A stretch of DNA of 64,000 nt, from NCBI GenBank assembly GCA_964533375.1, contig CAZHLW010000001.1, forward strand, positions 144,063 through 208,062, written 5' to 3'. The translations under genes were made by a program, and so were the position numbers. The stretch comes from an uncultured Candidatus Peribacteria bacterium (GTDB taxonomy: Bacteria; Patescibacteriota; Gracilibacteria; Peribacterales; Peribacteraceae). The notes below the pieces were generated by a model that worked only from the letters and a program-made list of their open reading frames with translations, had not been told where the DNA came from and made no database searches. Shown here in pieces: positions 5,005-20,409 of this stretch (position 1 is its first letter; each line of letters begins with the position of its first letter).

Positions 5005-5542
5005 GGGGGATTAAGGTACGCAAATGCTTCACGCCTCTGGTAATACGCACCGAGACGGTATTGGGGGATTCTTCCAGGATTTCGGCAATTTCCGCCGGAG
5101 ACAGGCCCTGGATATACCGCATGCTCACAGCCGTTCTGTAGGGTTCCTCAATTTGCTTCAATACGTCCATTACCTGGTCTTCGGCAATCATATCGCGCTT
5201 CAGACGTTCGTCTTCGGACGGAGGATCGAACCCCTCTTCCTGCAGTGCATCCAGCGAGGCTTCGCTTTTCTTCCGCTTATAGTTAAAGCAAAGGTTACTG
5301 GCGACGCGGTAGAGAAAGGCGCGGACGTTGTCTAAATCGTGCCCCTCGGCAATATAGACCCAGGTTTTCATGAACGCCTCCTGCATGATTTCGAGCGCAA
5401 TTTCGCGGTTAAACACAATAAAATGGCAATGACGAAAGATTTCATCCTTGTACTCGTCAAAGGCTTTGGCGAAGTCTTCTTCTGCGTTGTGGGATGCCCG
5501 GATAATCATAATGAGGTGGAAGGCTGAGAAGGGATCATACAC
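4997..5542 (-). CDS. ECF-type RNA polymerase sigma-70 family factor
   Basis: Region 2 (IFRHCHFIVFNREIALEIMQEAFMKTW) and a region 4 HTH (MRYIQGLSPAEIAEILEESPNTVSVRITRG). The 5542 start is GTG; an ATG at 5509 is an alternative. Confidence 0.85.
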   Translation of the reverse strand: MYDPFSAFHLIMIIRASHNAEEDFAKAFDEYKDEIFRHCHFIVFNREIALEIMQEAFMKTWVYIAEGHDLDNVRAFLYRVASNLCFNYKRKKSEASLDALQEEGFDPPSEDERLKRDMIAEDQVMDVLKQIEEPYRTAVSMRYIQGLSPAEIAEILEESPNTVSVRITRGVKHLRTLIPHG

Positions 5543-5623
5543 TATTTTTCAGACGATTTTTATGTGATTTTCCGGCTTTCTTCTGCGATTTTCCGCTTGT
5601 CCTATGGTATACTGCCCGCTCTC

Positions 5624-7069: not shown

Positions 7070-7152
7070 GGGTTTGAAAGTTGAAAGGTAGAAGGTATAA
7101 GGTTTGTTTGAGAGTTTTCTTTTAAACTTTCTACTTTCAAACTTTTCAACCC
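7070..7152. repeat. Imperfect long palindrome built from heptamer repeats
   Basis: The left arm is TTGAAAG TTGAAAG GTAGAAG GTATAAG (7074-7101). The right arm, CTTTTAAACTTTCTACTTTCAAACTTTTCAACCC (7119-7152), is its imperfect complement. It fills the LCP-uppP spacer. Confidence 0.8.
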
Positions 7153-7157
7153 GTCAC

Positions 7158-7928
7158 ATGACTGCACTCCACGCACTTCTCCTCGGAATTGTCGAAGGGT
7201 TCTCGGAATTTTTGCCGGTCAGCTCGACGGCGCATCTCATCCTCACATCAGCATTACTCAAACTGGAACAGACGGAGTTTCTGAAAACTTTTGAAGTGGT
7301 CATCCAGCTCGGAGCGATTCTGTCCGTGGTTGTTGTCTACTGGCGGTCACTCCTTGTGCAGAAAGACGTGATGCTCCGGATTGCCATTGCTTTCATTCCC
7401 ACGGCTATTATCGGTTTCCTGCTGGAACGCATTATCCGCAATGTCCTGTTTGAAAATATCCCCACCATTCTGTGGTCACTTTTTATCGGAGGAATCATCC
7501 TCATCGCGTTTGAGAAGTTTCATACACCATCACCCAAAGATATCGCCGATATGAAAGACATGAGCTACAGGCAGGCCTTCCTGATCGGTCTCTGTCAGGC
7601 ACTTGCAGTCGTTCCCGGTGTCTCGCGCAGCGGTGCGACGATTGTTGGAGGAGTCTTACTAGGAGTGAGCCGCAAAGCCATCGTCGATTTCTCGTTTGTG
7701 CTCGCAGTGCCTACCATGCTCGCAGCGACGGTTTTGTCGATGGTGAAGCACAGTGATGAGATGTCGTTTGATCAGTCGGGATTACTGGCGATTGGGTTTG
7801 TGACATCTTTCATTATTGCGCTGATAAGCATCAAGTGGTTACTGGGGTACGTGAAGAAGCACAGCTTTGCGGCGTTTGGTGTGTACCGGATTGCAATCGC
7901 TGTGCTGTTTTTTGCGTTACTCTTCTAG
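7158..7928 (+). CDS. uppP: Undecaprenyl-diphosphate phosphatase
   Basis: MTALHALLLGIVEGFSEFLPVSSTAHL..., PGVSRSGATIVGG, and about 8 TM helices. ATG at 7158. Confidence 0.9.
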   Translation: MTALHALLLGIVEGFSEFLPVSSTAHLILTSALLKLEQTEFLKTFEVVIQLGAILSVVVVYWRSLLVQKDVMLRIAIAFIPTAIIGFLLERIIRNVLFENIPTILWSLFIGGIILIAFEKFHTPSPKDIADMKDMSYRQAFLIGLCQALAVVPGVSRSGATIVGGVLLGVSRKAIVDFSFVLAVPTMLAATVLSMVKHSDEMSFDQSGLLAIGFVTSFIIALISIKWLLGYVKKHSFAAFGVYRIAIAVLFFALLF

Positions 7929-9197
7929 GAGATTAGACGGTGTCTTCTGGGGTAGTACCTCTGGTACGACAGCACTGAGAGCATCACGTACTTGCTCTGT
8001 ATCAATGGTAAAGGTGGCGTTGTTCAACGCGTCTTCCTGTAGCGGATCGACAAAAACGGTTTCAATCGCACTATGGACAGCATCAATATCAAGAGCCGTT
8101 TTCCCGCTTTGTACTGTCGCCGCGTGCTGATAGTTATCCAAGTGCTGCAGCAGACGGGCAAAGGCACCGATGAGTGCTTGTGGTGTTGTTTGAATGAAAT
8201 CGGTTTCAGATTCCTCTCCTGCCTGCCTGAAAATGCTTCCAACTCTCTTCTCCAGATCTTTGGGATCGATGAATGAGTGATTGTGAAGACCGGCATCCGT
8301 TCCATCGCGAATATCAGCCGCGATTCTTGCCAGCGATGCAACAGAGGCGGCAATTTCCCGCTTCACATTTCTTGCAGTTTTGATGTTCAGAATATCGTCA
8401 CTATGGTCCCTGCGGCCATCCATATCGGCAGCCAGGGTGGCAATGGCCGTCAGTTCTTCTTGTAACGTTTTCAATTCTGCTGCTTGTTTTTCTGCCATCG
8501 TACGGCGCAATTGGTTATAAGTTTTTAGGAAATCGTTGCAGGTGGAAAGTGCCCTGAAAGCGCCTGCCATCAGTGTATCCTTTCGGCCTTCCAAAGCAGT
8601 GCGCAGGCCATCATCTAAGTCAGCCCATGCCACTACTTTTTCCTGCATCAGTCCCGACGTCTCATTAATTGCCCATCCGATTGTGACTCTTGCCGGATTC
8701 GGGTTATGCAGCGCATCGGCAATGGTTTCCACCAGTTGCTTTGCAACAAGACCGAGGTCATCTCCTGCGTCATACAGGGAATCTGCTTCCAACTTCTTTT
8801 CAAACAACGCAAGCCGAAAGCGAATACCTTCAAATGAACTGAAGAGAGGATCTTCTGGTGAAAGCACCAGTTGTTTTTGAGCTTCTCCTACGGAGACCAA
8901 AGCGTCTCTCTGGAGTTGCCGGATTCCCTCTACATCCACTTTTGTTTTTTCTCCGTTTTCCAGTTCCAGCTCCACGCTGACGTTGGTTGACAGCGTGTCG
9001 AGTGAGGAAAGGTCTTGTATATGCTTCAGGACAGCATCTTTCTTTAGTTTTAACGCAAATGCCTGCATGCCTTTTGCACGCACCACAGCCTTTCCGATAC
9101 CCAGCTGCTCCATTTGTGAGGCAAGGGCTTCGAGAGAGGACTCATCTATACCTTCTGGAAGATGCCTATCTCCACTCCGAGTGTCTGTTTGTTTCAT
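7917..9197 (-). CDS. Hypothetical protein (426 aa, acidic, predicted helical)
   Basis: Long ORF with coding-like composition and no motif I recognise. Its 3' end overlaps the uppP 3' end convergently by 12 nt. Confidence 0.6.
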   Translation of the reverse strand: MKQTDTRSGDRHLPEGIDESSLEALASQMEQLGIGKAVVRAKGMQAFALKLKKDAVLKHIQDLSSLDTLSTNVSVELELENGEKTKVDVEGIRQLQRDALVSVGEAQKQLVLSPEDPLFSSFEGIRFRLALFEKKLEADSLYDAGDDLGLVAKQLVETIADALHNPNPARVTIGWAINETSGLMQEKVVAWADLDDGLRTALEGRKDTLMAGAFRALSTCNDFLKTYNQLRRTMAEKQAAELKTLQEELTAIATLAADMDGRRDHSDDILNIKTARNVKREIAASVASLARIAADIRDGTDAGLHNHSFIDPKDLEKRVGSIFRQAGEESETDFIQTTPQALIGAFARLLQHLDNYQHAATVQSGKTALDIDAVHSAIETVFVDPLQEDALNNATFTIDTEQVRDALSAVVPEVLPQKTPSNLLEE

Positions 9198-9242
9198 ATA
9201 ACTATTATACTATATTTTGCTATTTTAAGCAATATCCTTGTT

Positions 9243-9989
9243 TTACACCTGTATACGGGAGAATAGCCAGCTTCCGATCGCCAAAAAAACTGCAGAAACG
9301 ACTACAAGGACGGTCAAATCCAATCCATAGCTAAATTGCAGCGTTCCGCTCAGTGCCCCGCGCAGCCCATCCACACCGTAGCTCAAGGGGTTGAGGTGCG
9401 TGACGACAGCAATCGGACCGGGGAGATTTTTGAGCGGGAACATCGCGCCGCTCAGGAAGAAGAGGGGCATCACGAGGAAGTTCATGATGAGCGGGAAGGC
9501 CTGCATATCTTCCAACATGCTGGCAATACCGGTACCAAGGGCTGTGAAGAGAAGGGCAATCAGAGCCATAAAAACAAAGGCTGTCGGCAGTGCGCTCCAG
9601 CTTTCCGGGCGGAACCCTGCTATCAGTGTGATCGCAAAAATGATCAATCCCTGAATGATGGCGACCGTTGCGCCACCAAGTGTGCGTCCGAGCATGATGT
9701 GCCAGCGGGGAACCGGAGCGACGAGCGTTTCCTTCAGGAACCCAAACTGTCTGTCCCAGATAATTTCGATCCCACCGAAGACCGCCATAAACATCACGCT
9801 CATCGAGATCACTCCCGGTGCAATGAACTGCACATAACTTCCTTGTCCTGCCTGTTCAAAGACGGGACCCAGGCCGTAGCCGAGCGCCAGCAGGAAGAGG
9901 ATCGGTTGTCCGAGGGACCCGAGAATGCGGGACTTCGAGCGGACGTAACGCTTGAGTTGGCGGAGCCAGAGGATGTAGATGGTACCCAT
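9243..9989 (-). CDS. ABC-2 type exporter permease
   Basis: Six hydrophobic helices, and an N-terminus MGTIYILWLRQLKRYVRSKSR typical of ABC-2 permeases. Sits downstream of the ATPase gene. Start at 9989. Confidence 0.8.
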   Translation of the reverse strand: MGTIYILWLRQLKRYVRSKSRILGSLGQPILFLLALGYGLGPVFEQAGQGSYVQFIAPGVISMSVMFMAVFGGIEIIWDRQFGFLKETLVAPVPRWHIMLGRTLGGATVAIIQGLIIFAITLIAGFRPESWSALPTAFVFMALIALLFTALGTGIASMLEDMQAFPLIMNFLVMPLFFLSGAMFPLKNLPGPIAVVTHLNPLSYGVDGLRGALSGTLQFSYGLDLTVLVVVSAVFLAIGSWLFSRIQV

Positions 9990-9990
9990 G

Positions 9991-10026
9991 GGATGTAAGG
10001 TCGAGGATAAGGTTAAGGTTGAGGGG
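9991..10026. repeat. Copy of the ~30-nt hexamer-periodic purine-rich element
   Basis: GGATGT AAGGTC GAGGAT AAGGTT AAGGTT GAGGGG, in the spacer between the ABC ATPase and permease genes. Confidence 0.8.
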
Positions 10027-10050
10027 CTTGCCCTGAGCGGAGCTGAAGGG

Positions 10051-10848
10051 TTAATGACGGCCCCAGGCTTTGCGCATTTCGCGCATGTTCTCAGCGTTGC
10101 TCGAACTTTCCTCACGAATGGCGTTGCCGGTTAATTTTAGGAATGCTTCTTCAAGAGTCGCGGTCGATGTCAGCTTTAATAGTTCTTCCGATGTTCCCAT
10201 TGCGATGATTTTTCCGTGATCGATAATCGCGATGCGCGTGGCTACTTTGGCTGCTTCTTCCATGTAGTGTGTGGTCAAAAACACCGTAATTCCTTCTTCC
10301 CTGTTGAGTTTCCCAACATAGTCCCACAGGTGATTTCTGGTCTGGGGATCGAGTCCGATGGTTGGCTCATCCAGGAATAAGACTTTTGGGTGGTGCAGCA
10401 GACTGCGCGCAATTTCCAGACGGCGCTTCATGCCGCCGGAGAAGGTTTTCACCAGACTGTCTTTGCGGTCCCACATATCCACAAATGTCATCAACTCCTG
10501 AATGCGCTGTGCGCGGATGTTTCGGGGTGTGCTGTACAGCGCTGCGTGGAGTTCCATATTTTCTTTCGCTGTGAGCTCACCATCTAAACTCGGGTCCTGG
10601 AACACAATGCCAAAGGCCTTGCGGGCTTCACTCTGATGATGCACCGGATCGAATCCGTCAATCATCACCGCGCCTTCCGTGGGGCGGAGGAGTGTTGTGA
10701 GCATTTTAATAGTCGTGGTTTTCCCGGCGCCGTTGGGGCCCAGGAACGCAAAGATTTCGCCCTTTTCGATACTAAAGTCGACGCTGTCCACGGCGGTAAC
10801 ATCCTTGAACTTCTTTGTGACGTTTTTGGCTTCAATAATTGGAGGCAT
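10051..10848 (-). CDS. ABC transporter ATP-binding protein (DrrA/ABC-2 type)
   Basis: Walker A GPNGAGKTTT, signature FSGGMKRRLE, Walker B VLFLDEPT. Confidence 0.9.
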   Translation of the reverse strand: MPPIIEAKNVTKKFKDVTAVDSVDFSIEKGEIFAFLGPNGAGKTTTIKMLTTLLRPTEGAVMIDGFDPVHHQSEARKAFGIVFQDPSLDGELTAKENMELHAALYSTPRNIRAQRIQELMTFVDMWDRKDSLVKTFSGGMKRRLEIARSLLHHPKVLFLDEPTIGLDPQTRNHLWDYVGKLNREEGITVFLTTHYMEEAAKVATRIAIIDHGKIIAMGTSEELLKLTSTATLEEAFLKLTGNAIREESSSNAENMREMRKAWGRH

Positions 10849-10943
10849 AATGATTCAGTGTAGCACGGAACAAGACCCTGCCCACAAAAAAGTGGAGATT
10901 TTGGGGGCTCGAGAAGTCCTAGCTCTTCCCCTCATTCTCCGCC

Positions 10944-10949
10944 TATAAT
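10944..10949 (+). promoter_or_regulatory. Candidate -10 box (TATAAT) placed for a leaderless proS transcript
   Basis: A perfect TATAAT ends 6 nt before the proS ATG (10956). I see no Shine-Dalgarno sequence and only a weak -35. Confidence 0.3.
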
Positions 10950-10955
10950 CCGTCC

Positions 10956-12677
10956 ATGCGCCTCTCCCAGCTTTTCACGAAAACATCGAAAGATTCCCAA
11001 TCGGATGCATCCAGCAAGAATGCCGATCTGCTGACACGCGCCGGATTTATTGATAAGACGATGGCCGGAACGTACGCATTCCTGCCGCTCGGGCTGCGGG
11101 TGCTTGCGAAAATTGAGGCAATTTTGCGTGAAGAAATGAATAAGATCGGACAGGAAGTGTTCCTGCCGTCCCTTGCCCCGACTGAGTTGTGGGAAAAGAC
11201 AGGGCGTCTCGATACAGTCAGTGTGCTTTTTCAGGCGACACCTGCAAACGATGCGTCCAAGAAAACCAACGACTCCCGTTATGTGCTGAACTCCACACAT
11301 GAGGAAATCATCACGCCTATCCTCCAGCGCTTTTGCACCAGTTACAAAGATTTCCCCCGCGCCGTGTACCAGATCCAGACTAAGTTCCGGAATGAAGCGC
11401 GTCCGAAATCAGGACTCCTGCGCGGCCGCGAATTCCGCATGAAGGATCTGTACAGCTTCCATACATCGGAAGAGGACATGATGCGATATTTCGATACGCA
11501 GGCCACCCCTGCCTACAAAGCATTCTTCGACCGCGTGGGTCTTGGCGACAAAACAGTGATCGCCCTGGCATCCGGGGGGGATTTCAGCAAGCATCCTTCC
11601 AAAGAATTCCAGACTATCTGCGAAAACGGTGAAGATCATTTGTTCCGTGTTCCCGGTACCGAGGAGATCTACAACCGCGAAATCTGTCCGGCTCTTGCAT
11701 CTGCCTGGGGCGATCCAAATGAAGCCGAAAAACCACGCGAAGATGTGGTCGGCAAAGGGATGATCGGTGTGGAAGAGCTCTGCAAATTTTTGGGTATCGA
11801 AGTGGAACGCACTACCAAGACATTACTTTTTGAAACGGAAACCGGAGCGGTGATCGCTGCGGCTGTGCGCGGGGAATACGATGTGAACGAAGAGAAGCTC
11901 CGAAAGATTCTCGGCTGCACAAGCCTCAAGCTCGCATCTGCCGATACCGTCCGCAAGGTTACGAAGGCCGAAGTCGGGTATGCCGGTCCGCTCAATCTGC
12001 CGAAGGATGTTCGTGTGATTTGGGACGACTCCACCCGCGGCCGCAAGAATTTTGAATGTGGTGCGAACAAGACGAACGAACACAGCATCAACGTAAACTT
12101 CGGACGCGATCTCCCGGTGCCTGAAGAATTCCACGATATCAAAGTCGCGCGGGAAGGGGATCTGGTACCCGGAACAGAGACGCCCTACGAGGTTTTCCGT
12201 GCCTGCGAAGTCGGCAATATTTTCACGCTCTTCACCAAATTCTCCAGCGCCTTCGATTTCACATTCCAGGACAAAGACGGCAAACAGAAGCCGGTGTACA
12301 TGGGTTGCTATGGCATCGGTTCCAGTCGTGTGATGGGGGTGATTGCAGAAGTGAGTAACGATGAACACGGTCTCGTCTGGCCAGAGGCCATCGCTCCTGC
12401 CGACGTGCACATTATTCCCGTCGCCAAGTCCGAAGACGATGAAGCATTCAAAGTTGCCGCTGAGCTTGTTGCCCGCTTTGAAAAAGAAGGGAAGGAGGTT
12501 CTGTTTGATGACCGCACAGATGCATCCGTTGGATTCAAGCTGGCTGATGCTGATTTGATTGGTATACCCGTGCGTATTCTCGTCTCGCCAAAAACTCTCG
12601 CAGAAGGTTGTGCAGAAGTAACTATCCGCAGAGCCGGCGAAATGGCCCTGGTGAAGCTGTCTGATATCAAACTCTGA
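10956..12677 (+). CDS. proS: Prolyl-tRNA synthetase (bacterial type with editing insertion)
   Basis: MRLSQLFTKTSK..ADLLTRAGFIDKTMAGTYAFLPLG, class II motifs (FRNEARPKSGLLRGREFRMKD; GCYGIGSSRV), and a C-terminal anticodon-binding domain. Confidence 0.92.
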   Translation: MRLSQLFTKTSKDSQSDASSKNADLLTRAGFIDKTMAGTYAFLPLGLRVLAKIEAILREEMNKIGQEVFLPSLAPTELWEKTGRLDTVSVLFQATPANDASKKTNDSRYVLNSTHEEIITPILQRFCTSYKDFPRAVYQIQTKFRNEARPKSGLLRGREFRMKDLYSFHTSEEDMMRYFDTQATPAYKAFFDRVGLGDKTVIALASGGDFSKHPSKEFQTICENGEDHLFRVPGTEEIYNREICPALASAWGDPNEAEKPREDVVGKGMIGVEELCKFLGIEVERTTKTLLFETETGAVIAAAVRGEYDVNEEKLRKILGCTSLKLASADTVRKVTKAEVGYAGPLNLPKDVRVIWDDSTRGRKNFECGANKTNEHSINVNFGRDLPVPEEFHDIKVAREGDLVPGTETPYEVFRACEVGNIFTLFTKFSSAFDFTFQDKDGKQKPVYMGCYGIGSSRVMGVIAEVSNDEHGLVWPEAIAPADVHIIPVAKSEDDEAFKVAAELVARFEKEGKEVLFDDRTDASVGFKLADADLIGIPVRILVSPKTLAEGCAEVTIRRAGEMALVKLSDIKL

Positions 12678-13088
12678 TCAGCTGACCCAAATCCCGATCT
12701 GCGTGACAATCGCGCCGAAGAGAATTCCTGCCATTACCTGCCGGAACGAGTGTCCCACGCGCTCGGAGAACTTGGTCCAATTCTGCAGTCTGTTCAGCAT
12801 TTCCGCCTGAAGTCCCACTTCGCGGCGAACGCTCATGGCGTCGTACCAGACCACGCAGGCAAACACGAAACTGATGGCGAACGGCACGGAGTCGTAGCCG
12901 GTTTTGTGTCCCACAACCATCAGAAGAGATGTGACAAATGCGGAGTGGCTGCTTGGCATACCGCCGGAACGAAGAATGCCCGAACGCCAGTCACCCGTGC
13001 GGATGTATTCAATAGTCACCTTCAGCAGATCCGACAAAATCATGACGATCAGCGGCGTGAGGAAGATGTACTGTCTAAGGATATGCAT
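12678..13088 (-). CDS. Divergent PAP2 family (DUF212-like) membrane protein
   Basis: GGMPSSHSAFVTSL motif and 4 TM helices. Confidence 0.8.
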   Translation of the reverse strand: MHILRQYIFLTPLIVMILSDLLKVTIEYIRTGDWRSGILRSGGMPSSHSAFVTSLLMVVGHKTGYDSVPFAISFVFACVVWYDAMSVRREVGLQAEMLNRLQNWTKFSERVGHSFRQVMAGILFGAIVTQIGIWVS

Positions 13089-13090
13089 CT

Positions 13091-13123
13091 TAAGGTCGAG
13101 GAGAAGGTGAAGGGGTAAGGACC
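13091..13123. repeat. Copy of the ~30-nt hexamer-periodic purine-rich element
   Basis: TAAGGTC GAGGAG AAGGTG AAGGGG TAAGGACC, between two minus-strand genes. Confidence 0.8.
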
Positions 13124-13144
13124 ACGAATAATGGTATCACGTCC

Positions 13145-13789
13145 TCAATAATTATTGCGTGTGATTTCAATTACCTGTCCGCGGTCGGCAGTGTGTTTGC
13201 TGGTTTTCCCCTTCAGCATCAGTTCAAACATGGCAGCAGTCTCGTCTGTATTCATTGCGATGCTGACATCTTTTCCAAACGCGCCGACTTTCATGGTGAC
13301 CGTGTCACCAGCTCGCTTGAAGTCCAGGATATCGAGTTCGACATCGCCACCGAGCGCGCCGCCGTTTGCGGAAACCAGGTACTTTTGGGCGTCCAGGTAG
13401 ATGCAGTCTGTGCGGACCATCAGCGCATGCTTTTTGCCACCGAGGGTAAAGATCACTTCTGTCTGGCCGACAAGGTTTTTGTTCTCGGGGAAGGATGAGA
13501 GGAGATCGGACACGGGCGAAGATGCCTTCGTTTCCGGCTCTTCTTCGACTTCGATCTCAGGTTCAACCGCAGGCTCAGGCTCAGCCACCATAACAGGCTT
13601 CGGAAGCGGGCGGGAGCGGATGGCTTTTGGCTTGGGCTTCACGCTTTCAACAGGCTTCGTGTCTGGAACATCAGCCCCCTCGGTGCCATCGGTCACGTCG
13701 CTCTTCTTCACCTTCGGCTTCATCCAGCGTGTCAGCTGCACAGCGAGCGACTTGAGGGGGCGGCCGAAGGGGGAGGAAGGGGGAGTCAC
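13145..13789 (-). CDS. Hypothetical protein (orphan operon gene 6): Pro/Glu/Lys-rich N-terminus and beta-rich C-terminal domain
   Basis: ORF whose start overlaps the stop of the 1081-aa gene by 4 nt. No recognisable domain. Confidence 0.65.
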   Translation of the reverse strand: MTPPSSPFGRPLKSLAVQLTRWMKPKVKKSDVTDGTEGADVPDTKPVESVKPKPKAIRSRPLPKPVMVAEPEPAVEPEIEVEEEPETKASSPVSDLLSSFPENKNLVGQTEVIFTLGGKKHALMVRTDCIYLDAQKYLVSANGGALGGDVELDILDFKRAGDTVTMKVGAFGKDVSIAMNTDETAAMFELMLKGKTSKHTADRGQVIEITRNNY

Positions 13790-16700
13790 GCTGCTGTCCG
13801 AAGAAGTTCCATGATGCCGCCTTCAGTCAGGCGGCCAACTGTTGATCCTATATCCGTATAGAGTGTTTTTTCTGCTGCATGGTTTTGTTCTACATCTTTT
13901 GCCATGTCATTCGGTGATTTAGAGAGTACATCTTTCATGCTCAGAACGACCTGATCCATTTCCTTGTAGGTGATGCTCTTTATCTGCTTCACATGCTGAA
14001 TGGTGTTTGTCAGGATTGTCTTGAGCGACTGTGCGTAATTTCCTCTGGCGGCAGCCCGCTCATTCTCCACGCCAAACCAGGATCCTGAATACGTGGCATC
14101 CAACACACTCTTTTCACAAATAGCCAGATCATCATGAATCATCTGCAGGACAAAGAGCGGCATATTTTCTGCAAATTCATTCGGATTGGCACTTGCCTCT
14201 ACCAGCGAATTTCGTGTCGCTTTATATGCAGTCGATTCTTGCGTTGCGATGAGTTGATCTTGTTTTCCCCAATAGCGCTCATTGTTCCATGCTACAAATG
14301 ATAAGGATTTGCCTTCGTAGCGCTCTTTGCACTGTAACTGTGCATACGTCGTTGCTCTCTTTAAAATCTGGGCATCGATGGTATGGAATTGATTGTTTGT
14401 TTTGTAGGCAATGTACTGCTCCGCATCGTTCACAAAATCGTTGATCCGCTGCTTCTGCATGTTTTTCAGATGTTGCTCAACATGCACTTTACCCATTTTT
14501 TCGAGTGCGATCGCCGTATCATCATCGACATCAAGGATAGTTGGTTTTTGCACTGTTGTATCCGCAATTTGTGCAAAGTATGCACGATATCCCTGCACGC
14601 GGGTGAACGTTTCTGCGCTCTGGAAATCAGTCTGCCGGAAGCCGATATCAAGGATGGCCGTCAGCAGTTTGGTGTCTTCCAGGCCTTTCGATTCATCGAT
14701 GTATTTTAGAATATGTCCCGGAGTGCTTTGCACCAGATCTTTCTCCGATTGTGCATAACGCAGTTCCAGCCGTTTCAATTCCTCTACTTCATGTGATGCA
14801 ATGGCTGATCCTATTGCCACGCCCACACCGATGGGCCCTAAGTACGCAGCAACGGGGAGGGCGCCAATCATGAGCGGGCCGCCAGCCACTAACGAGTACA
14901 CACCAAGTCCGCCCATGGAGATTCCGATGGCCGACTGAATACCGCCATCAATTGTGTAGATGAAGTTGGAGTTTTCGTACACTCTCTTGAGTGCCGGGTT
15001 ATTGGTATTCCGGATTTTTTCGTTGTTATCAAGAATGGCGAAGTAGGCAAGCAGCGGTCCTACCGCATCTGCGACCACGCCCACTGCACACCACTTCATA
15101 TTCTTCAGACAATTTTGTGCTTTTTGTGCAGCAGTGATTAAATGTCCAAGCTCGTCGGTTGATCCAATGGCGCCACGGAGCAGCTTTTGGCCCGATTTGC
15201 TTTTGAGCACATCAAGCGCATCGTCGCCGACTGCTTCCAGCTGGATGTGCATGCGGATTTTTGCCTGTCTGCCTGCTTCACCCGCTTCTTCAAATGCCTT
15301 TGTCATTTCCGGAGTATTCAGTAGCTCATCTATTTTCTTTATCTTCGCACTTTCCGCGGCAGTATCTACTGCATTTGCAGGAACAGGTTTCGGTTGAGCG
15401 CCCGCACTATGAGACGACGTACTGGCGGTGTGCGGGGCGTTGGCGGTCTTTGTGAATCCTTTCCAGATTTCATCCATTTTCTCGGTAAAGCCCTCTATAC
15501 CCATATGACATACATCTTTCAATTCCCGAATAACTGCAGGAGTACTGTCATCAATCGGCAGCTTTTTCAGTGCCAGGCGGATGGAATCCGCCATGGTTTC
15601 TTGTGCACGTACAACACTTGTCACTTCTGCATCCGAGAACATGCGCAGTGTTTTCTTATCAAACATTTGCATAATTTCCATGTCGCGCTGCAGTACTTTC
15701 CACTGCTGTACAGCTGCAAGCATTCCGTCATTCGTTGCCAACCCTCCTTTGAATGCCAATTCACCACTATTGGCAATACCCCATACAACCTGTCCTGGTA
15801 CCGATTGTTTGATGTAGCGTAAGTGCAGAGCTTCGCGCCCCTGGGGAGTGACAGTCCTGCTTGCAATGGATAGGGCATCATTCAAGGGCGCCAATGGACC
15901 GCTGGCAATTTTAAGAGCGGTAAATATCAAATCTTTTTTCGTAAGAGGGATCAGGGTTCTTGCCTGTCCGCGCATCAGGAGGTTGAATGTTTTCTGCCCG
16001 ACAAAATATGCAGCGCCGCTTGCGCCGTAGAGCATAAACAAGTCTTCGTCGCGTTTGCCTGTTCGCATCCAGTTCAGAATTTTTCCGGTTACTGTTGCAG
16101 GCAGTGCAATGGCCTGTGTTCCGATGTGCAGGAGAAATGCGCCATTTTCATACGCCAGCGCACCGCCATTGGAGAGAGCATACTGCAGCGCCTCTCCCAC
16201 GCTTTCCTGACTTGCGACCTTTGTCAGAAATTCCACATTTTTGCCGCCGACACTCATCGCCTTGTCTCCCGTGTCGAGGAATTGATTGCCTGCACCAGCT
16301 GCAACATCTGTAACAGCGGAGGCTGCTTCTACAGGAAGGCGAGGCAGAAGATTGTCCGGTAATCCCAGGGGATTCTTCAGTTTCTTATTGAGCATGTCCA
16401 GGCCGACCAATGCTGCTGCACCAATACCGAGTCCAATAAGCAGTTTCTTCAAAAATCCACCTTCCGCCTGAGTTCCGGCTGCGAGACCGCTTGCTACCGC
16501 GTTTTTACTGCGGAACCACGCACTGATCAGACTGCCAATAATGACCGTTGCTCCCACAGTAATTCCGGCACCTACAAGCGCTTTCTTTCTGGTGGACCAT
16601 TCTTTTGTCCATGAAGTGGGGAGCAGAGTATCCGTTACACCTACTGAAAAATTGGTAATCATTCCGCCTATCGTCTGAGGTGTCTCTTCTTTTTTTTCTG

Positions 16701-17031
16701 TCGCAATCTGATTCATCAGCGCCTGCTTCTGCACATCGGTCTGCTTTTCCACATTCAGACGTGCACCAAGGAGGAGCATGTTTAACTGCGCTTTTGTCTG
16801 CGTGCGTTTTTCCAGGGAACTGAGAGATCCTTCCACTTTCGCAAGCACCTCCTTTCCTTTCTCTCCCTGCAGCTTCTTTGCAAGCTCATCAAGCTGCAAT
16901 TCTGTCGGATTTGCAGACACGACACTCATCACTTCCTGTTCCAGCGTCATCTTCTCCGGTGTCTCATGCAGCAAACGGTTCTCACCGGTTGTGAAGGAAG
17001 GGGAGCGGTGTTTGTGGGACAGTGTGTACAT
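13786..17031 (-). CDS. Hypothetical 1081-aa membrane protein with two Gly-zipper-like hydrophobic clusters (orphan operon gene 5)
   Basis: An uninterrupted 3.2-kb ORF. Its hydrophobic clusters are KKALVGAGITVGATVIIGSLISAWF / LLIGLGIGAAALVGLDML and WCAVGVVADAVGPLLAYFAIL ... GGIQSAIGISMGGLGVYSLVAGGPLMIGALPVAAYLGPIGVGVAIGSAIA. The remainder looks helical. Confidence 0.75.
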   Translation of the reverse strand: MYTLSHKHRSPSFTTGENRLLHETPEKMTLEQEVMSVVSANPTELQLDELAKKLQGEKGKEVLAKVEGSLSSLEKRTQTKAQLNMLLLGARLNVEKQTDVQKQALMNQIATEKKEETPQTIGGMITNFSVGVTDTLLPTSWTKEWSTRKKALVGAGITVGATVIIGSLISAWFRSKNAVASGLAAGTQAEGGFLKKLLIGLGIGAAALVGLDMLNKKLKNPLGLPDNLLPRLPVEAASAVTDVAAGAGNQFLDTGDKAMSVGGKNVEFLTKVASQESVGEALQYALSNGGALAYENGAFLLHIGTQAIALPATVTGKILNWMRTGKRDEDLFMLYGASGAAYFVGQKTFNLLMRGQARTLIPLTKKDLIFTALKIASGPLAPLNDALSIASRTVTPQGREALHLRYIKQSVPGQVVWGIANSGELAFKGGLATNDGMLAAVQQWKVLQRDMEIMQMFDKKTLRMFSDAEVTSVVRAQETMADSIRLALKKLPIDDSTPAVIRELKDVCHMGIEGFTEKMDEIWKGFTKTANAPHTASTSSHSAGAQPKPVPANAVDTAAESAKIKKIDELLNTPEMTKAFEEAGEAGRQAKIRMHIQLEAVGDDALDVLKSKSGQKLLRGAIGSTDELGHLITAAQKAQNCLKNMKWCAVGVVADAVGPLLAYFAILDNNEKIRNTNNPALKRVYENSNFIYTIDGGIQSAIGISMGGLGVYSLVAGGPLMIGALPVAAYLGPIGVGVAIGSAIASHEVEELKRLELRYAQSEKDLVQSTPGHILKYIDESKGLEDTKLLTAILDIGFRQTDFQSAETFTRVQGYRAYFAQIADTTVQKPTILDVDDDTAIALEKMGKVHVEQHLKNMQKQRINDFVNDAEQYIAYKTNNQFHTIDAQILKRATTYAQLQCKERYEGKSLSFVAWNNERYWGKQDQLIATQESTAYKATRNSLVEASANPNEFAENMPLFVLQMIHDDLAICEKSVLDATYSGSWFGVENERAAARGNYAQSLKTILTNTIQHVKQIKSITYKEMDQVVLSMKDVLSKSPNDMAKDVEQNHAAEKTLYTDIGSTVGRLTEGGIMELLRTAA

Positions 17032-17053
17032 GAACGATGGAGGAAAAACAGAC

Positions 17054-17524
17054 TCAGGCGCTTTGCTTGAGCGATGGTTCGAATACTTTTGTCAGTGCTG
17101 TAACTGTTGTGTTTACTGCTCTGATGCCGCCGACTGTTATGCCGCCGAGAGCACCAAACAGTGCCTCGCTTGCACCAAGTGCCGCCTGTGGGACTCGTTT
17201 TGCAACGGAATAGATCGTGCTGCCGGTTACATCAAGCACGCGATTCAATCCCTGATTAAATCTGCTCTGTTCGTAGGTAATCTGCTTATACACATCGATC
17301 TGCTTCTGACACTTTTCAATATCCATCTGTTCATTTTCCGTCAGCCCGATAAAGAATGCGCGGCGTGCCTCTTCGGCTGCCTGTATGGCAGCTGGATCTT
17401 TTATTTTCTTTGCGTTCTGTACGGCATCCTCATGATCCAAAAATGCCTGCACGTGCGGAGCGAGTCCCGCTTTCATCTCGGCTATTTCCTGTTCCGGTGA
17501 CTGTGGGGTGGTGTTGGTGTCCAT
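17054..17524 (-). CDS. Hypothetical protein (orphan operon gene 4)
   Basis: Start chosen at MDTNTTPQSPEQE (17524), 13 nt after the upstream stop. Helical, with a Gly/Ala-rich C-terminal segment (AALGASEALFGALGGITVGGIRAV). Confidence 0.6.
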   Translation of the reverse strand: MDTNTTPQSPEQEIAEMKAGLAPHVQAFLDHEDAVQNAKKIKDPAAIQAAEEARRAFFIGLTENEQMDIEKCQKQIDVYKQITYEQSRFNQGLNRVLDVTGSTIYSVAKRVPQAALGASEALFGALGGITVGGIRAVNTTVTALTKVFEPSLKQSA

Positions 17525-17537
17525 GGGAGAAAAAAAG

Positions 17538-18686
17538 TTAGACAGCAGGCTTGAATTCCACGCCGTATGCTTCAATGGTATAGGGTGTTTTTCTCTCTAT
17601 TTGCTTTAATAGATCCTCCAATTCCTGATTGGTTTTAAAGATGTGTGACACAGTGATAGCTGCTCCTGTGAGAGGGTTTTTTGTGTTCGTATCAACAGTC
17701 ATCTGCAACTGGCCATTCTCGATCTTGAGTTCAGTTACAGGCAGTACATCATTTTTCTTCTTATAAGAGAGCTGCCATGGACTTCCGCTAATATCTACCT
17801 TGCCGTTTACGATTTTGGCATTCACTGTTTTTCCGTCGCGGGTTGCACTGACCGCATTCACGCCTTCTGCTTTTAGAGTGACGGGCAGGGAAGGTCCTTC
17901 CGCGGCCTTGTCTTTTCCCGCTTCTGCTTTCACATCTTTAAAAACATGCTCCGTGACGTACTTGTCGAGCTCGGACAGCTCAAATGTTTTTCTGTTTTCT
18001 GTTTTCTGAAGATGGTCTGCAAACTTGAGTGCGGCCGTATCAAAAAAACCTTTTACGGTATATTTTGAGTGAATTCCCTGGATTTCTTTTGCCATCTCAA
18101 TCATATGATTGATGGGCAGAGTATCCAGCTCGGGCCTGTCCGGATGGAAAACCGGGTCGATTCCCTTTTTACGGAGAGATCCGAAGAGCATTGTTCGGTC
18201 CATCCCCAGGAAAGACTCTAAAACAGCAATATTTGCATCCCCGCCAAGGAACGGAATTTTCTGCAGCGCTTCCATGATCGGAGCCAAATGGTACGCCAGG
18301 AAATTGCCGTAGTGCTCGATCATTGTTCCGATATTCGACAGGAAATCTTTCGGTGCCTCAGCTGCTTCCGGTTGATTGGGTTTCAGGTCTGATTCATCAA
18401 TCTTCTTTTCAATATCAGGCAGTTTTTCAAAATCTTCTGCGATTCCCTGCTTTTCGGCTTCGCTCAATTCCTTTCCTTCTTTTGCTTTCTCTTCCATTTT
18501 CTTAATTTCTTCCAGGCGTGCTTTTGCATTTGCATCATTTCCTGCATTGATTTTCTTTTCGAGAGATCTCTTTAAATTTCGCAACTTTCCTCTTGCATCA
18601 AGTTGCTGCTGTTTCTCAGCAGATTGATTGCCCGAATTCGGGATATTCGGGGCACTATTCGGAGAATTTGCAGTGGTTCCGCCCAT
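17538..18686 (-). CDS. Hypothetical protein (orphan operon gene 3): Lys/Glu-rich coiled-coil-like N-terminus and beta-rich C-terminus
   Basis: 382-aa ORF with no recognisable domain. Confidence 0.65.
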   Translation of the reverse strand: MGGTTANSPNSAPNIPNSGNQSAEKQQQLDARGKLRNLKRSLEKKINAGNDANAKARLEEIKKMEEKAKEGKELSEAEKQGIAEDFEKLPDIEKKIDESDLKPNQPEAAEAPKDFLSNIGTMIEHYGNFLAYHLAPIMEALQKIPFLGGDANIAVLESFLGMDRTMLFGSLRKKGIDPVFHPDRPELDTLPINHMIEMAKEIQGIHSKYTVKGFFDTAALKFADHLQKTENRKTFELSELDKYVTEHVFKDVKAEAGKDKAAEGPSLPVTLKAEGVNAVSATRDGKTVNAKIVNGKVDISGSPWQLSYKKKNDVLPVTELKIENGQLQMTVDTNTKNPLTGAAITVSHIFKTNQELEDLLKQIERKTPYTIEAYGVEFKPAV

Positions 18687-18784
18687 AAAGAAGTTGGTAT
18701 AGGTTTCTAGAAATTATAGCAGAAATCACTCAAAATCGCAATTCTATTGGCATTTCGGGTGGTATGAACGCTTTTGAGTCGGTC

Positions 18785-19450
18785 TTAGGCTGCTATGCGG
18801 TTTGCAACTTTGTCCATCAATTGGTCAGAAGCACGCTGGAAAGCAGTTTCCATATCTTTTTTCAGAGTATCTGCCCTGCGTGTTTTCACACTGCGATCAA
18901 ATCCTCTGACCCAAGGTGCAAACAGGGAGGTGATGATGGATTTTCCCGGACGGGTTGTTTTGTCTATCGTTCCCATGTCTGGTAGCAGATCGTGCACGTC
19001 GATACCGCTGTCCTGGAGCAATTTGTAGAATGCATCCAAATCGCTCATCAGCTGGTCGAAATATGCTCCTTCCTGCCTTGCAATCAGATGCGATCCTATG
19101 CCCGCAGGGATCGTTCCGATTGCCGTGAAGTTCAGAAGCGAAAGCATCTGCTGAATATTGGTATCCGTACGCAGTGCTGCAAATGTTTTCCGCATACGGG
19201 CGGCAAGGGAACGGAGTTGTTCGAGTGCGATGTCGCGCGGGAGTTTCACGTCTGCAGGCAGTGCGACAATTGTGTTTATTTGCCGATTTTCCACTGCCAG
19301 TCCTGCCTCTGCACGGCCTTCTTCGGCTGCCAGTTGTTCCGCTGATACATCGATTCCCGCTTTGTGCAGTGCATGGACAGCCGTGTTGACGGATGAACCG
19401 GATTGCTGCTCAGGATTTTCGGCGGTATCGGGGTTATGCATGTGCGTCAT
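18785..19450 (-). CDS. Hypothetical protein (orphan operon gene 2)
   Basis: ORF 18785..19546. Start placed at MTHMHNPDTAEN (19450), but the true start is uncertain. Confidence 0.55.
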   Translation of the reverse strand: MTHMHNPDTAENPEQQSGSSVNTAVHALHKAGIDVSAEQLAAEEGRAEAGLAVENRQINTIVALPADVKLPRDIALEQLRSLAARMRKTFAALRTDTNIQQMLSLLNFTAIGTIPAGIGSHLIARQEGAYFDQLMSDLDAFYKLLQDSGIDVHDLLPDMGTIDKTTRPGKSIITSLFAPWVRGFDRSVKTRRADTLKKDMETAFQRASDQLMDKVANRIAA

Positions 19451-19618
19451 GGTTGTGAGAAAGGAAGGAGTGAAGACGGTCGATCTCAGCGCGTTCCTCG
19501 GAACGCTTTTCTGTTTCCGCACGCATGGCATCTGTCTTCTCTGCAAACGATTGCAAATGCAGCAGGGCGGAGGCTTTTTGGAGCAGTGTGTCGATGGTCA
19601 TGGGAAAAGAGGAAGAGG

Positions 19619-20287
19619 TTAGATGGTCAGGTTGTCCGGGTTGGGTGGGAATTCTACGTCTCTCGGCAGATCCAGGAGCGGCTCTGCTTCTTTCTGCCTC
19701 TGGCCTACCACTTCGTTCCTGCTTTCTTCCGCTTTCCGGATGAGCGTACGCACGGTCTCGGACTGTTCGCTTTCCGGGACAATGGCGTCCATTGAAAATT
19801 CAATATCCATGAATAGTTCACGTTCCATTGCAGCGCCACCGTTGTTCCCTGTCATGCCTTTTACGTAGCGGGGGAGATCTTTTCTCAGCAGTGCGGCACG
19901 ATACTGTTCGACCAGTTCTCCGAGTGTCAGCGAGCGGTCTGACTGCACTTCTGTCACGTGAATTTTCTGTGCAAGCCGCGGAGACGTCCGTTCGATCATT
20001 CTGCGCAATCCTTCGCGTGTCTCATCCAAAAATCGGTTTTCTCCCGCATCTTTGAGCGATGTTTCCAGTACATCAAAGTGCAGGCGTATATCGTTCAATC
20101 CAGTCTGTATTTCAGTGCGCGCCTCCGGCGGAAGGAATTTTCCGTCTGCTTTAAAAAGCTCTGCAACAAGAAGTTCCTGCTGTGCGAGAGGATCTTCCAG
20201 TGTGACTTTTGATTCTTCACCCAACTGGTCCAATTGCTCCCGTGTGGAAGACTGAATGCTTTCTTTGGAAGAGCGTGGTGTTTCCAT
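19619..20287 (-). CDS. Hypothetical protein (orphan operon gene 1)
   Basis: 222-aa acidic, helical ORF. It is the first gene of the minus-strand block and is divergent from hpf. Confidence 0.6.
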   Translation of the reverse strand: METPRSSKESIQSSTREQLDQLGEESKVTLEDPLAQQELLVAELFKADGKFLPPEARTEIQTGLNDIRLHFDVLETSLKDAGENRFLDETREGLRRMIERTSPRLAQKIHVTEVQSDRSLTLGELVEQYRAALLRKDLPRYVKGMTGNNGGAAMERELFMDIEFSMDAIVPESEQSETVRTLIRKAEESRNEVVGQRQKEAEPLLDLPRDVEFPPNPDNLTI

Positions 20288-20409
20288 GGTGTGATGTTTG
20301 TATGAGTAAACTTAATGATATTATACTCTAAATAAAATAATTTCGCAATATATCCGCTTTCTCTTCCGGTTTGTGCTAGGATGGTTTTTGTTCTTTCCCC
20401 CCTGTACCT

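What the first reader, a model, noticed from the sequence alone, without database searches (positions are those of the whole stretch)
13145..20287. Seven-kb operon of six consecutive orphan proteins
Seen: six same-strand ORFs (222, ~221, 382, ~156, 1081 and 214 aa) with tight junctions. One junction is a 4-nt overlap at 13786-13789, and two are spacers of 13 nt and 22 nt. The block is bounded by a divergent hpf promoter region and by a micro-repeat element at 13091. I recognise no enzymatic, ATPase, DNA-binding or known structural motif in any of the six. Five are acidic or Lys-rich, predicted-helical proteins with low-complexity N-termini. The 382-aa and 214-aa proteins both end in beta-rich ~100-aa domains that look weakly alike (…TVDT..ITVSHIFKTNQELEDLLKQI…GVEF versus …TMKV..DVSIAMNTDETAAMFELMLKG…QVIEI). 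Inference: this is a dedicated multi-protein apparatus organised around the giant membrane protein. A surface, host-contact or membrane-insertion machine would fit, which matters if the organism is an episymbiont. No secretion ATPase or pilus genes are present in the window.
Basis: partly seen in the sequence, partly recalled or inferred. Interest (0 to 1): 0.62.

Follow-up and report, generated by a model that had tools for sequence, protein, structure and literature searches.

The report
Strain-variable giant membrane-protein locus of Peribacteria
An uncultured ultra-small groundwater bacterium (Candidatus Peribacteria) carries, at a fixed chromosomal spot, genes with no known relatives built around a 1,081-residue membrane protein; related strains swap whole pieces of these genes while each version stays under selection, as conflict or recognition genes do, though their job is unknown.

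Summary
The six minus-strand ORFs are real, and none matches a known family or fold. They are not one ancestral six-gene operon. C-D-E-F is a module conserved across one Peribacteria family, between hpf and DUF212/proS, behind a conserved promoter-like element. A-B is a strain-specific insertion with a second copy of that element, and A exists nowhere else among 5.8 billion proteins. Only E is a membrane protein, with two glycine-rich hydrophobic clusters (2 + ~3 segments). The locus is strongly polymorphic. Flanks are 84-92% identical to the nearest genome, but E's core is only 21%. Two strains 92-99% identical in DNA lose all similarity exactly at C's beta-domain and again at the start of E. 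The window's E body recurs (68%) in a different strain background. Within allele lineages dN/dS is 0.03-0.21, so the proteins are functional. In other genomes the same slot holds a protein with a true PT-TG (pre-toxin) domain, followed in three of five by an F homolog. Best reading (~0.42): a polymorphic membrane-effector or recognition locus with polymorphic-toxin-like logic. It fails the membership tests: no toxin domain, no co-varying immunity gene, no export system. Expression could not be checked.

The parts
20320..20348 (-). Promoter-like site 1 (TTGCGA-17-TATAAT) ahead of A. It keeps the hpf-proximal context that relatives have ahead of their first island gene.
19619..20287 (-). A: 222-aa acidic orphan (pI 4.8). 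It is a true singleton and belongs to the strain-specific insertion.
   Evidence: No homolog in 120 family genomes or in 5.8 billion proteins. Native coding signal.
18785..19450 (-). B: 221-aa basic orphan (ATG start; the ORF extends to a TTG at 19546). It belongs to the strain-specific insertion.
   Evidence: Only about 30%-identical homologs, in 5 of 120 family genomes and at other loci.
18713..18741 (-). Promoter-like site 2 (TTGCGA-17-TGCTATAAT, extended -10) ahead of C. This element is conserved at the head of the island in relatives.
17538..18686 (-). C: 382-aa soluble helper with a low-complexity and coiled-coil N-terminus, a helical bundle (res ~113-262) and a C-terminal beta-domain (res ~266-382, nt 17541-17891). 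The beta-domain is an exchangeable cassette.
   Evidence: Model. No fold neighbour. Homologs. Breakpoint at the start of the beta-domain. dN/dS 0.12-0.14.
17054..17524 (-). D: 156-aa small helical protein with a Gly/Ala-rich C-terminal tail. It occupies the slot that the S family (72-104 aa) holds in relatives.
   Evidence: One homolog, in G001. Positional equivalence to S. No detectable homology to S.
13786..17031 (-). E: 1081-aa giant helical membrane protein. Sub-parts: N-terminal helical module (res 1-150, nt 16582-17031); Gly-zipper hairpin (res 152-213); middle soluble region (res 214-646); second Gly-rich hydrophobic cluster (res 647-746, nt 14794-15093); confidently folded all-helical C-terminal domain (res ~750-1080, nt 13789-14784).
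13145..13789 (-). F: 214-aa protein whose GTG start overlaps E's stop by 4 nt (GTGA). It has a conserved basic N-terminal helix, an acidic Pro-rich linker and a conserved C-terminal beta-domain (res ~101-214).
   Evidence: Alignment A4. Tight E-F spacing in relatives. dN/dS 0.20, beta-domain 0.09. F-like genes also follow PT-TG proteins.
12678..13088 (-). DUF212 (divergent PAP2-type membrane protein): the conserved same-strand gene that ends the array in most loci. It may be co-transcribed with the module, and it marks the island boundary.

Best explanation
The window holds one version of a polymorphic locus specific to one Peribacteria family. It sits at a fixed chromosomal slot between hpf and DUF212/proS.

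Shown:
- The ancestral unit is C-D-E-F behind a conserved extended -10 promoter-like element. A-B is a later strain-specific insertion that duplicated the core of that element.
- E is a modular membrane protein. Its N-terminal helical module (about the first 150-300 residues) is inherited with the strain background and with the small upstream partner (S or D).
- E's body is exchanged between strains as a cassette. The body comprises the glycine-rich hydrophobic clusters and the large helical domains.
- The beta-domain of C is exchanged independently of E.
- Each measurable allele lineage (C, S, E, F) is under purifying selection.

Inferred:
- E is a membrane-inserting effector or recognition protein used in encounters with other cells or with phages. 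Candidates are the host of this probable episymbiont or competing strains.
- C and D/S are cytoplasmic adaptors or chaperones that dock on E's N-terminal module.
- F is made in a fixed ratio with E through start/stop overlap and binds a conserved feature of the large protein. The evidence for this is that F tracks the flanks rather than the E allele, and that F also accompanies the PT-TG-type proteins that replace E in other genomes.

The locus therefore works like a polymorphic-toxin or effector locus. It is not a demonstrable member of that class.
For: - Conserved position and order in the genus and in other genera.
- The E family is confined to this bacterial family: 24 of about 41 sampled genomes, against 2 of about 260 in the rest of the class. 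It comprises 213 clusters among 1.84 billion representatives.
- Window versus G005: flanks 84-92% identical, F 69%, C 56%, but E core 21%, which equals the cross-genus level.
- L048 versus L050: 92-99% nucleotide identity in the flanks and in C codons 1-262. Similarity collapses at C's beta-domain, recovers to about 90% in S, and collapses again at the start of E.
- L050's E is 68% identical to the window's E but 24% to L048's.
- G005 and L048 share E residues 1-300 at 51-74% and the rest at 15-25%. The window and L050 show the reverse pattern.
- dN/dS: E 0.03-0.08, C 0.12-0.14, S 0.15-0.21, F 0.20, flanks 0.02-0.06.
- Bona fide PT-TG proteins sit in the same slot in five genomes (33.3 bits in G003, above the 23.5-bit cut-off). 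An F homolog follows in three of them.
- The promoter-like element is conserved at the head of the island.
- The island has lower GC and GC3 than its flanks.
Against: - No toxin or enzymatic domain was found in E or in any of 34 family members scanned, and E has no fold neighbour.
- Within the family, E's C-terminal half is its most conserved part. Classical polymorphic toxins show the opposite pattern.
- F does not co-vary with the E allele, so it is not a classical cognate immunity protein.
- No LXG or WXG100 (T7SS) signature exists in six genomes of the group, and no other export route is evident.
- E is not detectably homologous to the PT-TG proteins.
- No expression, localisation or interaction data exist.
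Confidence: 0.42

Rival explanations
1. A fixed structural envelope or host-attachment apparatus. E is the membrane base, and C, D and F are structural subunits of a surface or contact structure of an episymbiotic cell.
For: The module is conserved and under purifying selection. E is a large membrane anchor. Envelope-related genes lie nearby: DUF212/PAP2, BacA and LytR-Cps2A-Psr. C's only, very weak, fold hint is an S-layer protein (SbsC, E 2e-3, TM-score 0.13). Exposed structures targeted by phages or hosts also become hypervariable.
Against: C, D and F have no signal peptide or TM segment. No secretion ATPase or pilus gene lies in the locus. About 40% of family genomes lack E. In G006 the slot holds three unrelated soluble orphans. 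A fixed machine would not be expected to tolerate independent reassortment of its parts.
Confidence: 0.2
2. An anti-phage defence cassette of the abortive-infection type in a variable hotspot. Cytoplasmic sensors (C with its swappable beta-domain, D/S and F) would trigger the glycine-zipper membrane protein E to permeabilise the cell's own membrane.
For: The slot holds different cassettes in different genomes, and E is patchily present. The partners are cytoplasmic, and one has an exchangeable C-terminal domain. A membrane protein rich in glycine-zipper segments is a plausible pore former. GC is lower than in the flanks.
Against: No PADLOC match. No nuclease, NTPase or other typical defence domain. 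The family is confined to one bacterial family instead of being spread horizontally across phyla. No integrase or other mobile-element gene is nearby. The most variable part is the presumed effector, not only the presumed sensor.
Confidence: 0.15
3. A membrane-anchored cytoplasmic scaffold, cytoskeleton-like or pole-like, made of coiled-coil and low-complexity proteins. Its rapid divergence would reflect weak constraint plus ordinary recombination, not conflict.
For: Coiled-coil, acidic Pro-rich and low-complexity regions are present. All partners lack export signals. dN/dS is 2-5 times higher than in the flanks but well below 1.
Against: Sharp breakpoints and the sharing of one E body between different strain backgrounds indicate selected allele exchange, not drift. 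A PT-TG pre-toxin-domain protein fills the same slot in relatives. E's well-folded domains are confidently predicted and constrained.
Confidence: 0.1
4. A remnant of a prophage or other mobile element, with E as a tape-measure-like protein.
For: E is long, helical and has hydrophobic segments. The top hits in the viral fold library are tail and tape-measure proteins, but none is significant (E >= 0.05, TM-score <= 0.1). F has a weak hit to a phage structural family (E 0.01-0.03).
Against: The chromosomal slot is fixed across genera, between housekeeping genes. There are no phage or integrase genes. There is no tblastn hit in 50,697 phage records and no relative on IMG/VR contigs. F's weak hit is not reproduced in any other F-family member.
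Confidence: 0.02

Closest known systems
Polymorphic toxin loci carrying a PT-TG pre-toxin domain, such as LXG/WXG toxins of monoderm bacteria with small helical partner proteins upstream and an immunity gene downstream (Zhang et al. 2012, PMC3482391; bioRxiv 10.1101/2025.10.01.679605). The detail on LXG partner proteins is from my own knowledge.
   Same: Gene order matches: small helical helper(s), then a large modular protein, then a tightly coupled small downstream gene. The large protein's N-terminal module is inherited with the background and its remainder is exchanged as a cassette with sharp breakpoints. Alleles are shared across strain backgrounds. A true PT-TG protein occupies the same slot, with the same F partner, in related genomes.
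   Different: E has no PT-TG, LXG or WXG domain and no toxin domain. The family's most conserved part is the C-terminal half. F does not co-vary with the E allele. No T7SS markers were found. E is itself an integral membrane protein with about five hydrophobic segments.
Glycine-zipper membrane-active proteins and toxins, that is pore-forming or membrane-depolarising effectors with GxxxG-type helices (from my own knowledge; not fetched or compared here).
   Same: E has two clusters of Gly/Ala-rich hydrophobic helices of the glycine-zipper type. D and the S family have small Gly-rich amphipathic tails.
   Different: No sequence or fold relationship to any such family was detected. E is far larger and carries about 750 residues of folded helical domains of unknown function.
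Other giant orphan glycine-zipper/coiled-coil proteins of Peribacteria noted earlier in this scan (e1-2552662, e1-2709207, e1-2709286, e1-4394947).
   Same: Same bacterial group and the same build: giant, helical, glycine-zipper segments, small partner genes, fast evolution and exchangeable ends. A suggested PT-TG or polymorphic-toxin link also recurs.
   Different: Those notes are unchecked AI notes on other genomes, and I did not test whether their proteins belong to the E family. Here the PT-TG link was tested: it is negative for E itself and positive only for the alternative occupant of the slot.

Membership tests
Polymorphic toxin systems (Zhang et al. 2012) | N-terminal trafficking domain or signal for a known export route (signal peptide, LXG/WXG, PAAR/VgrG, TPS) | tested here: not met
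   E has no Pfam or NCBIfam hit, and none of 30 family members has one. No N-terminal hydrophobic signal. No LXG or WXG100 above cut-off in six genomes.
Polymorphic toxin systems (Zhang et al. 2012) | Pre-toxin domain (PT-TG, PT-VENN or PT-HINT) ahead of the toxin module | tested here: inconclusive
   E and 30 relatives show no PF14449 hit. hhalign places E 646-713 on the PT-TG segment, but with only 0.4% probability. The alternative occupants of the same slot do carry a true PT-TG domain.
Polymorphic toxin systems (Zhang et al. 2012) | Conserved N-terminal part with a sharply divergent, exchangeable remainder between strains | tested here: met
   G005 versus L048: E residues 1-300 are 51-74% identical and the rest 15-25%. 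L048 versus L050: nucleotide similarity collapses at the start of E. The window-type body occurs in another strain background.
Polymorphic toxin systems (Zhang et al. 2012) | Recognisable toxin domain (nuclease, deaminase, peptidase, pore former) at the C-terminus | tested here: not met
   No family hit. The confidently modelled C-terminal domain has no neighbour in the PDB or BFVD.
Polymorphic toxin systems (Zhang et al. 2012) | Downstream immunity gene that co-varies with the toxin cassette | tested here: not met
   F's identity follows the flanks (window-G005 69%) and not the E allele (window-G005 E core 21%; window-L011 E 33-45% but F 46%).
Phage tail or tape-measure module, or prophage remnant | Neighbouring phage structural or integration genes, and homologs in phage genomes | tested here: not met
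   Neighbours are housekeeping genes. No PHROG hit below E 0.03. No tblastn hit in phage records. No significant BFVD fold hit. Nothing on IMG/VR contigs.
Known anti-phage defence systems (PADLOC-DB 2.0) | Match of any component to a defence-system protein model | tested here: not met
   Zero families for all six proteins at E <= 1.
T3SS HpaP / T3S4-type domain (lead from a weak hit of C) | Reproducible match to PF09483 across the C family | tested here: not met
   Only 1 of 6 C-family members matches, at E 0.012 and 16.1 bits against a 23.8-bit cut-off.
S-layer proteins of the SbsC type (lead from the fold search of C) | Significant fold similarity, and a signal peptide for export | tested here: not met
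   Best Foldseek hit has E 2.2e-3 with TM-score 0.13. C has no N-terminal hydrophobic signal.

The most novel reading that the evidence does not exclude
The module is a CPR-specific contact-dependent membrane-effector system that needs none of the known secretion machines. In this reading E is handed from the Peribacteria cell into the membrane of the cell it attaches to. C and D/S hold its hydrophobic clusters soluble and dock on its N-terminal module. E's glycine-zipper helices open a conduit or lesion there. The exchangeable E body and the C beta-domain then set which partners or hosts a strain can exploit, or which competitors it can harm. The PT-TG proteins in the same slot of other genomes would be an alternative warhead for the same delivery logic.
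Probability: 0.12. Interest if true: 0.9.

Novelty: new variant of a known kind. Interest (0 to 1): 0.62.

Why it matters
CPR bacteria are thought to live attached to other cells, yet almost nothing is known about the proteins that mediate or contest these contacts outside a few cultured Saccharibacteria. This locus takes up about 0.5% of a 1.3-Mb genome. It has no relatives of known function and shows the population signature of a conflict or recognition system: old alleles under purifying selection, cassette exchange with sharp breakpoints, and a pre-toxin-domain protein as an alternative occupant. None of the usual export machines is present. If the reading holds, it gives a concrete, sequence-defined handle on strain-level specificity in Peribacteria. 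It also adds a new family of giant modular membrane proteins with a confidently predicted domain that has no known fold neighbour. If it does not hold, the locus is still a well-delimited example of how orphan genes turn over at one fixed chromosomal slot in a reduced genome.

Tried and rejected
- **Family libraries:** Pfam, NCBIfam, PHROGs and PADLOC scans of all six proteins gave nothing above threshold.
- **Weak leads rejected:** C against HpaP and F against phage gp105/phrog_280 were each reproduced in only 1 family member. The S family has no Pfam match.
- **Larger E relatives:** ten other long E-family members have no Pfam domain, and none of 30 family members gives a consistent hit.
- **Solved structures by sequence:** profile searches for the E, C and F families found nothing.
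- **Fold searches:** C against the PDB, and E against the PDB and BFVD, gave no significant neighbour.
- **D as a divergent S-family member:** rejected at the sequence level (hhalign probability 0.2%).
- **E core against the G003 PT-TG protein or family:** not supported.
- **C against the G003 459-aa helper:** only an acidic coiled-coil match.
- **Replacement genes in G003, G006 and G041:** no cryptic homology to A-F, S or E by jackhmmer.
- **Co-variation of C beta-domain type with E allele type:** not found; the two reassort independently.
- **LXG and WXG100 as T7SS markers:** absent.
- **Phage origin:** no phage records or viral contigs hold relatives.
- **Technical failures:** the first profile search failed for length and was rerun on the conserved core; the first genome-contig scan needed a closer alignment; a 62-sequence alignment failed.
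- **Literature:** the Peribacteria genome paper (PMC4736985) does not discuss this locus.
- **Not possible here:** With only two structure jobs, F, D, A and B were not modelled. No multimer prediction was available.


Full report
**1. Observation**

The six minus-strand ORFs are present as described.

| Gene | Window coordinates | Length | Note |
|---|---|---|---|
| A | 19619-20287 | 222 aa | |
| B | 18785-19450 | 221 aa | ATG start; the ORF runs on to a TTG at 19546 |
| C | 17538-18686 | 382 aa | |
| D | 17054-17524 | 156 aa | ATG start, supported by the G001 homolog |
| E | 13786-17031 | 1081 aa | |
| F | 13145-13789 | 214 aa | GTG start |

- The GTGA overlap of E and F, the 13-nt C-D spacer and the 22-nt D-E spacer are all correct.
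- All six ORFs score as coding in the annotated frame only.
- None reaches threshold in Pfam, NCBIfam, PHROGs or PADLOC.
- Only E has hydrophobic segments: a hairpin at about 152-213 and a second cluster at about 647-746. The other five proteins have no TM segment and none near the N-terminus that could serve as a signal peptide. This rests on a hydropathy scan only; no dedicated predictor was available.

**2. Organism and distribution**

- The genome is 1.33 Mb in 4 contigs and 99% complete. Related contigs are titled Candidatus Peribacteria.
- A profile of E's conserved core (residues 600-1078) finds 213 clusters among 1.84 billion representatives. Nearly all full-length members are 1,000-2,400 aa.
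- In a sample of the class, the E family occurs in 24 of about 41 genomes of the window's own family, and in 2 of about 260 other genomes.
- Ten other long family members have no Pfam domain. No domain recurs among 30 members.

**3. The conserved unit**

- In the same genus and in other genera the interval between hpf and DUF212/proS holds, on the DUF212 strand, four elements in order. These are a 360-410-aa protein, a small protein (72-156 aa), a giant E-family protein (1,082-2,024 aa) and, within the genus, an F homolog.
- Iterative searches define four accessory families:
  - the F family, found across the genus;
  - the C family, which reaches another genus, G016;
  - a small S family directly upstream of E in six loci;
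  - D, which has a single homolog, in G001.
- D sits in the S slot but is not detectably related to S.
- A has no homolog in 120 family genomes or in 5.8 billion proteins. B has only about 30%-identical homologs, at other loci.
- An extended -10 promoter-like element (TTGnnn-17-TGCTATAAT) is conserved about 50-60 nt before the first island gene in most relatives.
- The window has two copies of this element. The copy before A keeps the relatives' hpf-proximal context. The copy before C keeps their downstream context.
- So A-B was inserted into the ancestral promoter region, and C-D-E-F (perhaps with DUF212) is the ancestral unit.

**4. Structures**

- The C model has mean pLDDT 72.8, and 77-95 over residues 161-382. 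It shows N-terminal helices, a helical bundle and an eight-stranded beta-domain followed by a helix. It has no significant PDB neighbour; the best hit is SbsC with TM-score 0.13.
- The E model has mean pLDDT 67.6. It is all-helical apart from a small sheet at 290-344, and its C-terminal domain (about 750-1080) is very confident at pLDDT above 90. The hydrophobic clusters are poorly modelled.
- E has no PDB or viral fold neighbour.

**5. Polymorphism: the main result**

- The window and G005 are each other's closest relatives in hpf (91%), DUF212 (92%), the 7TM protein (84%), the ATP-grasp/MATCAP protein (86%), F (69%) and C (56%). Their E cores are only 21% identical, the same as across genera. 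The window's E is closer to those of more distant genomes, at 31-33%.
- Two metagenomic strains, L048 and L050, are 92-99% identical in nucleotides through the flanks and the first 262 codons of C.
  - Similarity collapses exactly at C's beta-domain, returns to about 90% in S, and collapses again at the start of E.
  - L050's E is 68% identical to the window's E and 24% to L048's. Its C N-terminus and S belong to the L048/G005 background.
- C's beta-domain comes in at least two types, and these reassort independently of the E type.
- E itself is mosaic. G005 and L048 share residues 1-300 at 51-74% and the rest at 15-25%. The window and L050 share the body at 67-88% but the first 150 residues at only 39%.
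- Within allele lineages, selection is purifying:

| Gene | dN/dS |
|---|---|
| E | 0.03-0.08 |
| C | 0.12-0.14 |
| S | 0.15-0.21 |
| F | 0.20 (beta-domain 0.09) |
| Flanking genes | 0.02-0.06 |

- D, A and B have no close relative and could not be measured.
- The island has lower GC and GC3 than its flanks.

**6. What else fills the slot**

- G003 (same genus, no E) has hpf | 459 aa | 729 aa | F homolog (46%) | DUF212. G006 has three unrelated soluble orphans in the slot.
- The 729-aa protein has E's general build and carries a bona fide PT-TG pre-toxin domain, at 33.3 bits against a cut-off of 23.5.
- Across 121 family genomes, four more PT-TG proteins exist (718-1,001 aa). All four lie beside genes that flank the island, and three are demonstrably in the hpf-DUF212/proS slot. 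Two are followed by a 169-aa F-like gene.
- PT-TG is a recognised marker of polymorphic toxins linked to several export systems. Many PT-TG 'singleton' proteins lack any known trafficking domain (bioRxiv 10.1101/2025.10.01.679605).
- The only alignment hhalign offers between the E family and the PT-TG family puts E 646-713 on the PT-TG segment. Its support is nil (probability 0.4%).
- The genomes show no LXG or WXG100 signature.

**7. Interpretation**

Shown:
- a functional, lineage-restricted module at a fixed slot;
- modular exchange of the E body and of the C beta-domain between strains;
- purifying selection within alleles;
- an alternative occupant bearing a pre-toxin domain, with F as a shared partner.

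Inferred:
- E is a membrane-inserting effector or recognition protein.
- Its N-terminal module docks the small upstream partners, because it is inherited with them.
- F binds a conserved feature and is made in a fixed ratio with E.

The logic matches polymorphic effector loci. Membership fails on four tested features: trafficking domain, toxin domain, co-varying immunity gene and export system. The family's conserved half is also the C-terminal one. I put this reading at about 0.42. The rivals are a fixed envelope or attachment apparatus (0.20), an abortive-infection-type defence cassette (0.15), a weakly constrained scaffold (0.10) and a phage remnant (0.02).

**8. Limits**

- No multimer predictions were possible, and F, D, A and B were not modelled.
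- Topology rests on hydropathy and charge counts only.
- dS is saturated for several comparisons.
- Earlier scan notes prompted the PT-TG test. They are unchecked AI notes and were used only as leads.

Noticed in passing
window 10956-12677 (+): The window's ProRS is 573 aa and has a tRNA_edit (editing) domain. The orthologs at the same position in related genomes are 418-433 aa, and the one with domain annotation (L011, 422 aa) lacks that domain. tblastn coverage of the window protein is only about 70%.
   Followed up: partly
Earlier notes describe the same hexamer-type element at other intergenic sites of this genome.
   Followed up: no
L037 (G268:C8) 4302-18623: Three giant ORFs in tandem (1,419, 1,450 and 1,694 aa), each matching the E-core profile, so this is a paralog array. 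G012 (L017) has two in tandem, G016 has two loci, and G154 (L039) has a 678-aa E-like ORF next to a 1,507-aa one.
   Followed up: partly
L017 11825-18907; L024 5400-13358; L042 6243-12298: In three other genera the E-family gene does not lie in the hpf-DUF212 slot. It lies directly upstream, on the same strand, of a ~604-611-aa gene that looks like lepA by its N-terminal sequence. That identification was made by eye and not checked with a profile.
   Followed up: no
L018 6842-7651; L037 3494-4282; L039 8169-8957: A 262-269-aa protein recurs directly downstream of the E-like gene in three genera. Its N-terminus looks like a PD-(D/E)XK/Cas4-type nuclease motif by eye. This was not verified with a profile search.
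   Followed up: no
window 19434-19601 (-): A public gene call on the identical Logan contig places a 55-aa ORF between A and B, in another frame than B's upstream extension. It is probably spurious, but it lies in the 168-nt A-B spacer.
   Followed up: no
window 13145-20287: GC3 of A-E is 0.46-0.52, against 0.59-0.71 in the flanking housekeeping genes. F (0.66) looks native. Regional GC dips to 0.485-0.493 over 14-20 kb of the window.
   Followed up: partly
L034 (G007:C5) 7840-8942: A B homolog (236 aa) lies convergent to an S-family gene (104 aa) on a contig other than the one carrying that genome's E-like gene. This hints that B-like and S-like proteins also associate elsewhere.
   Followed up: no
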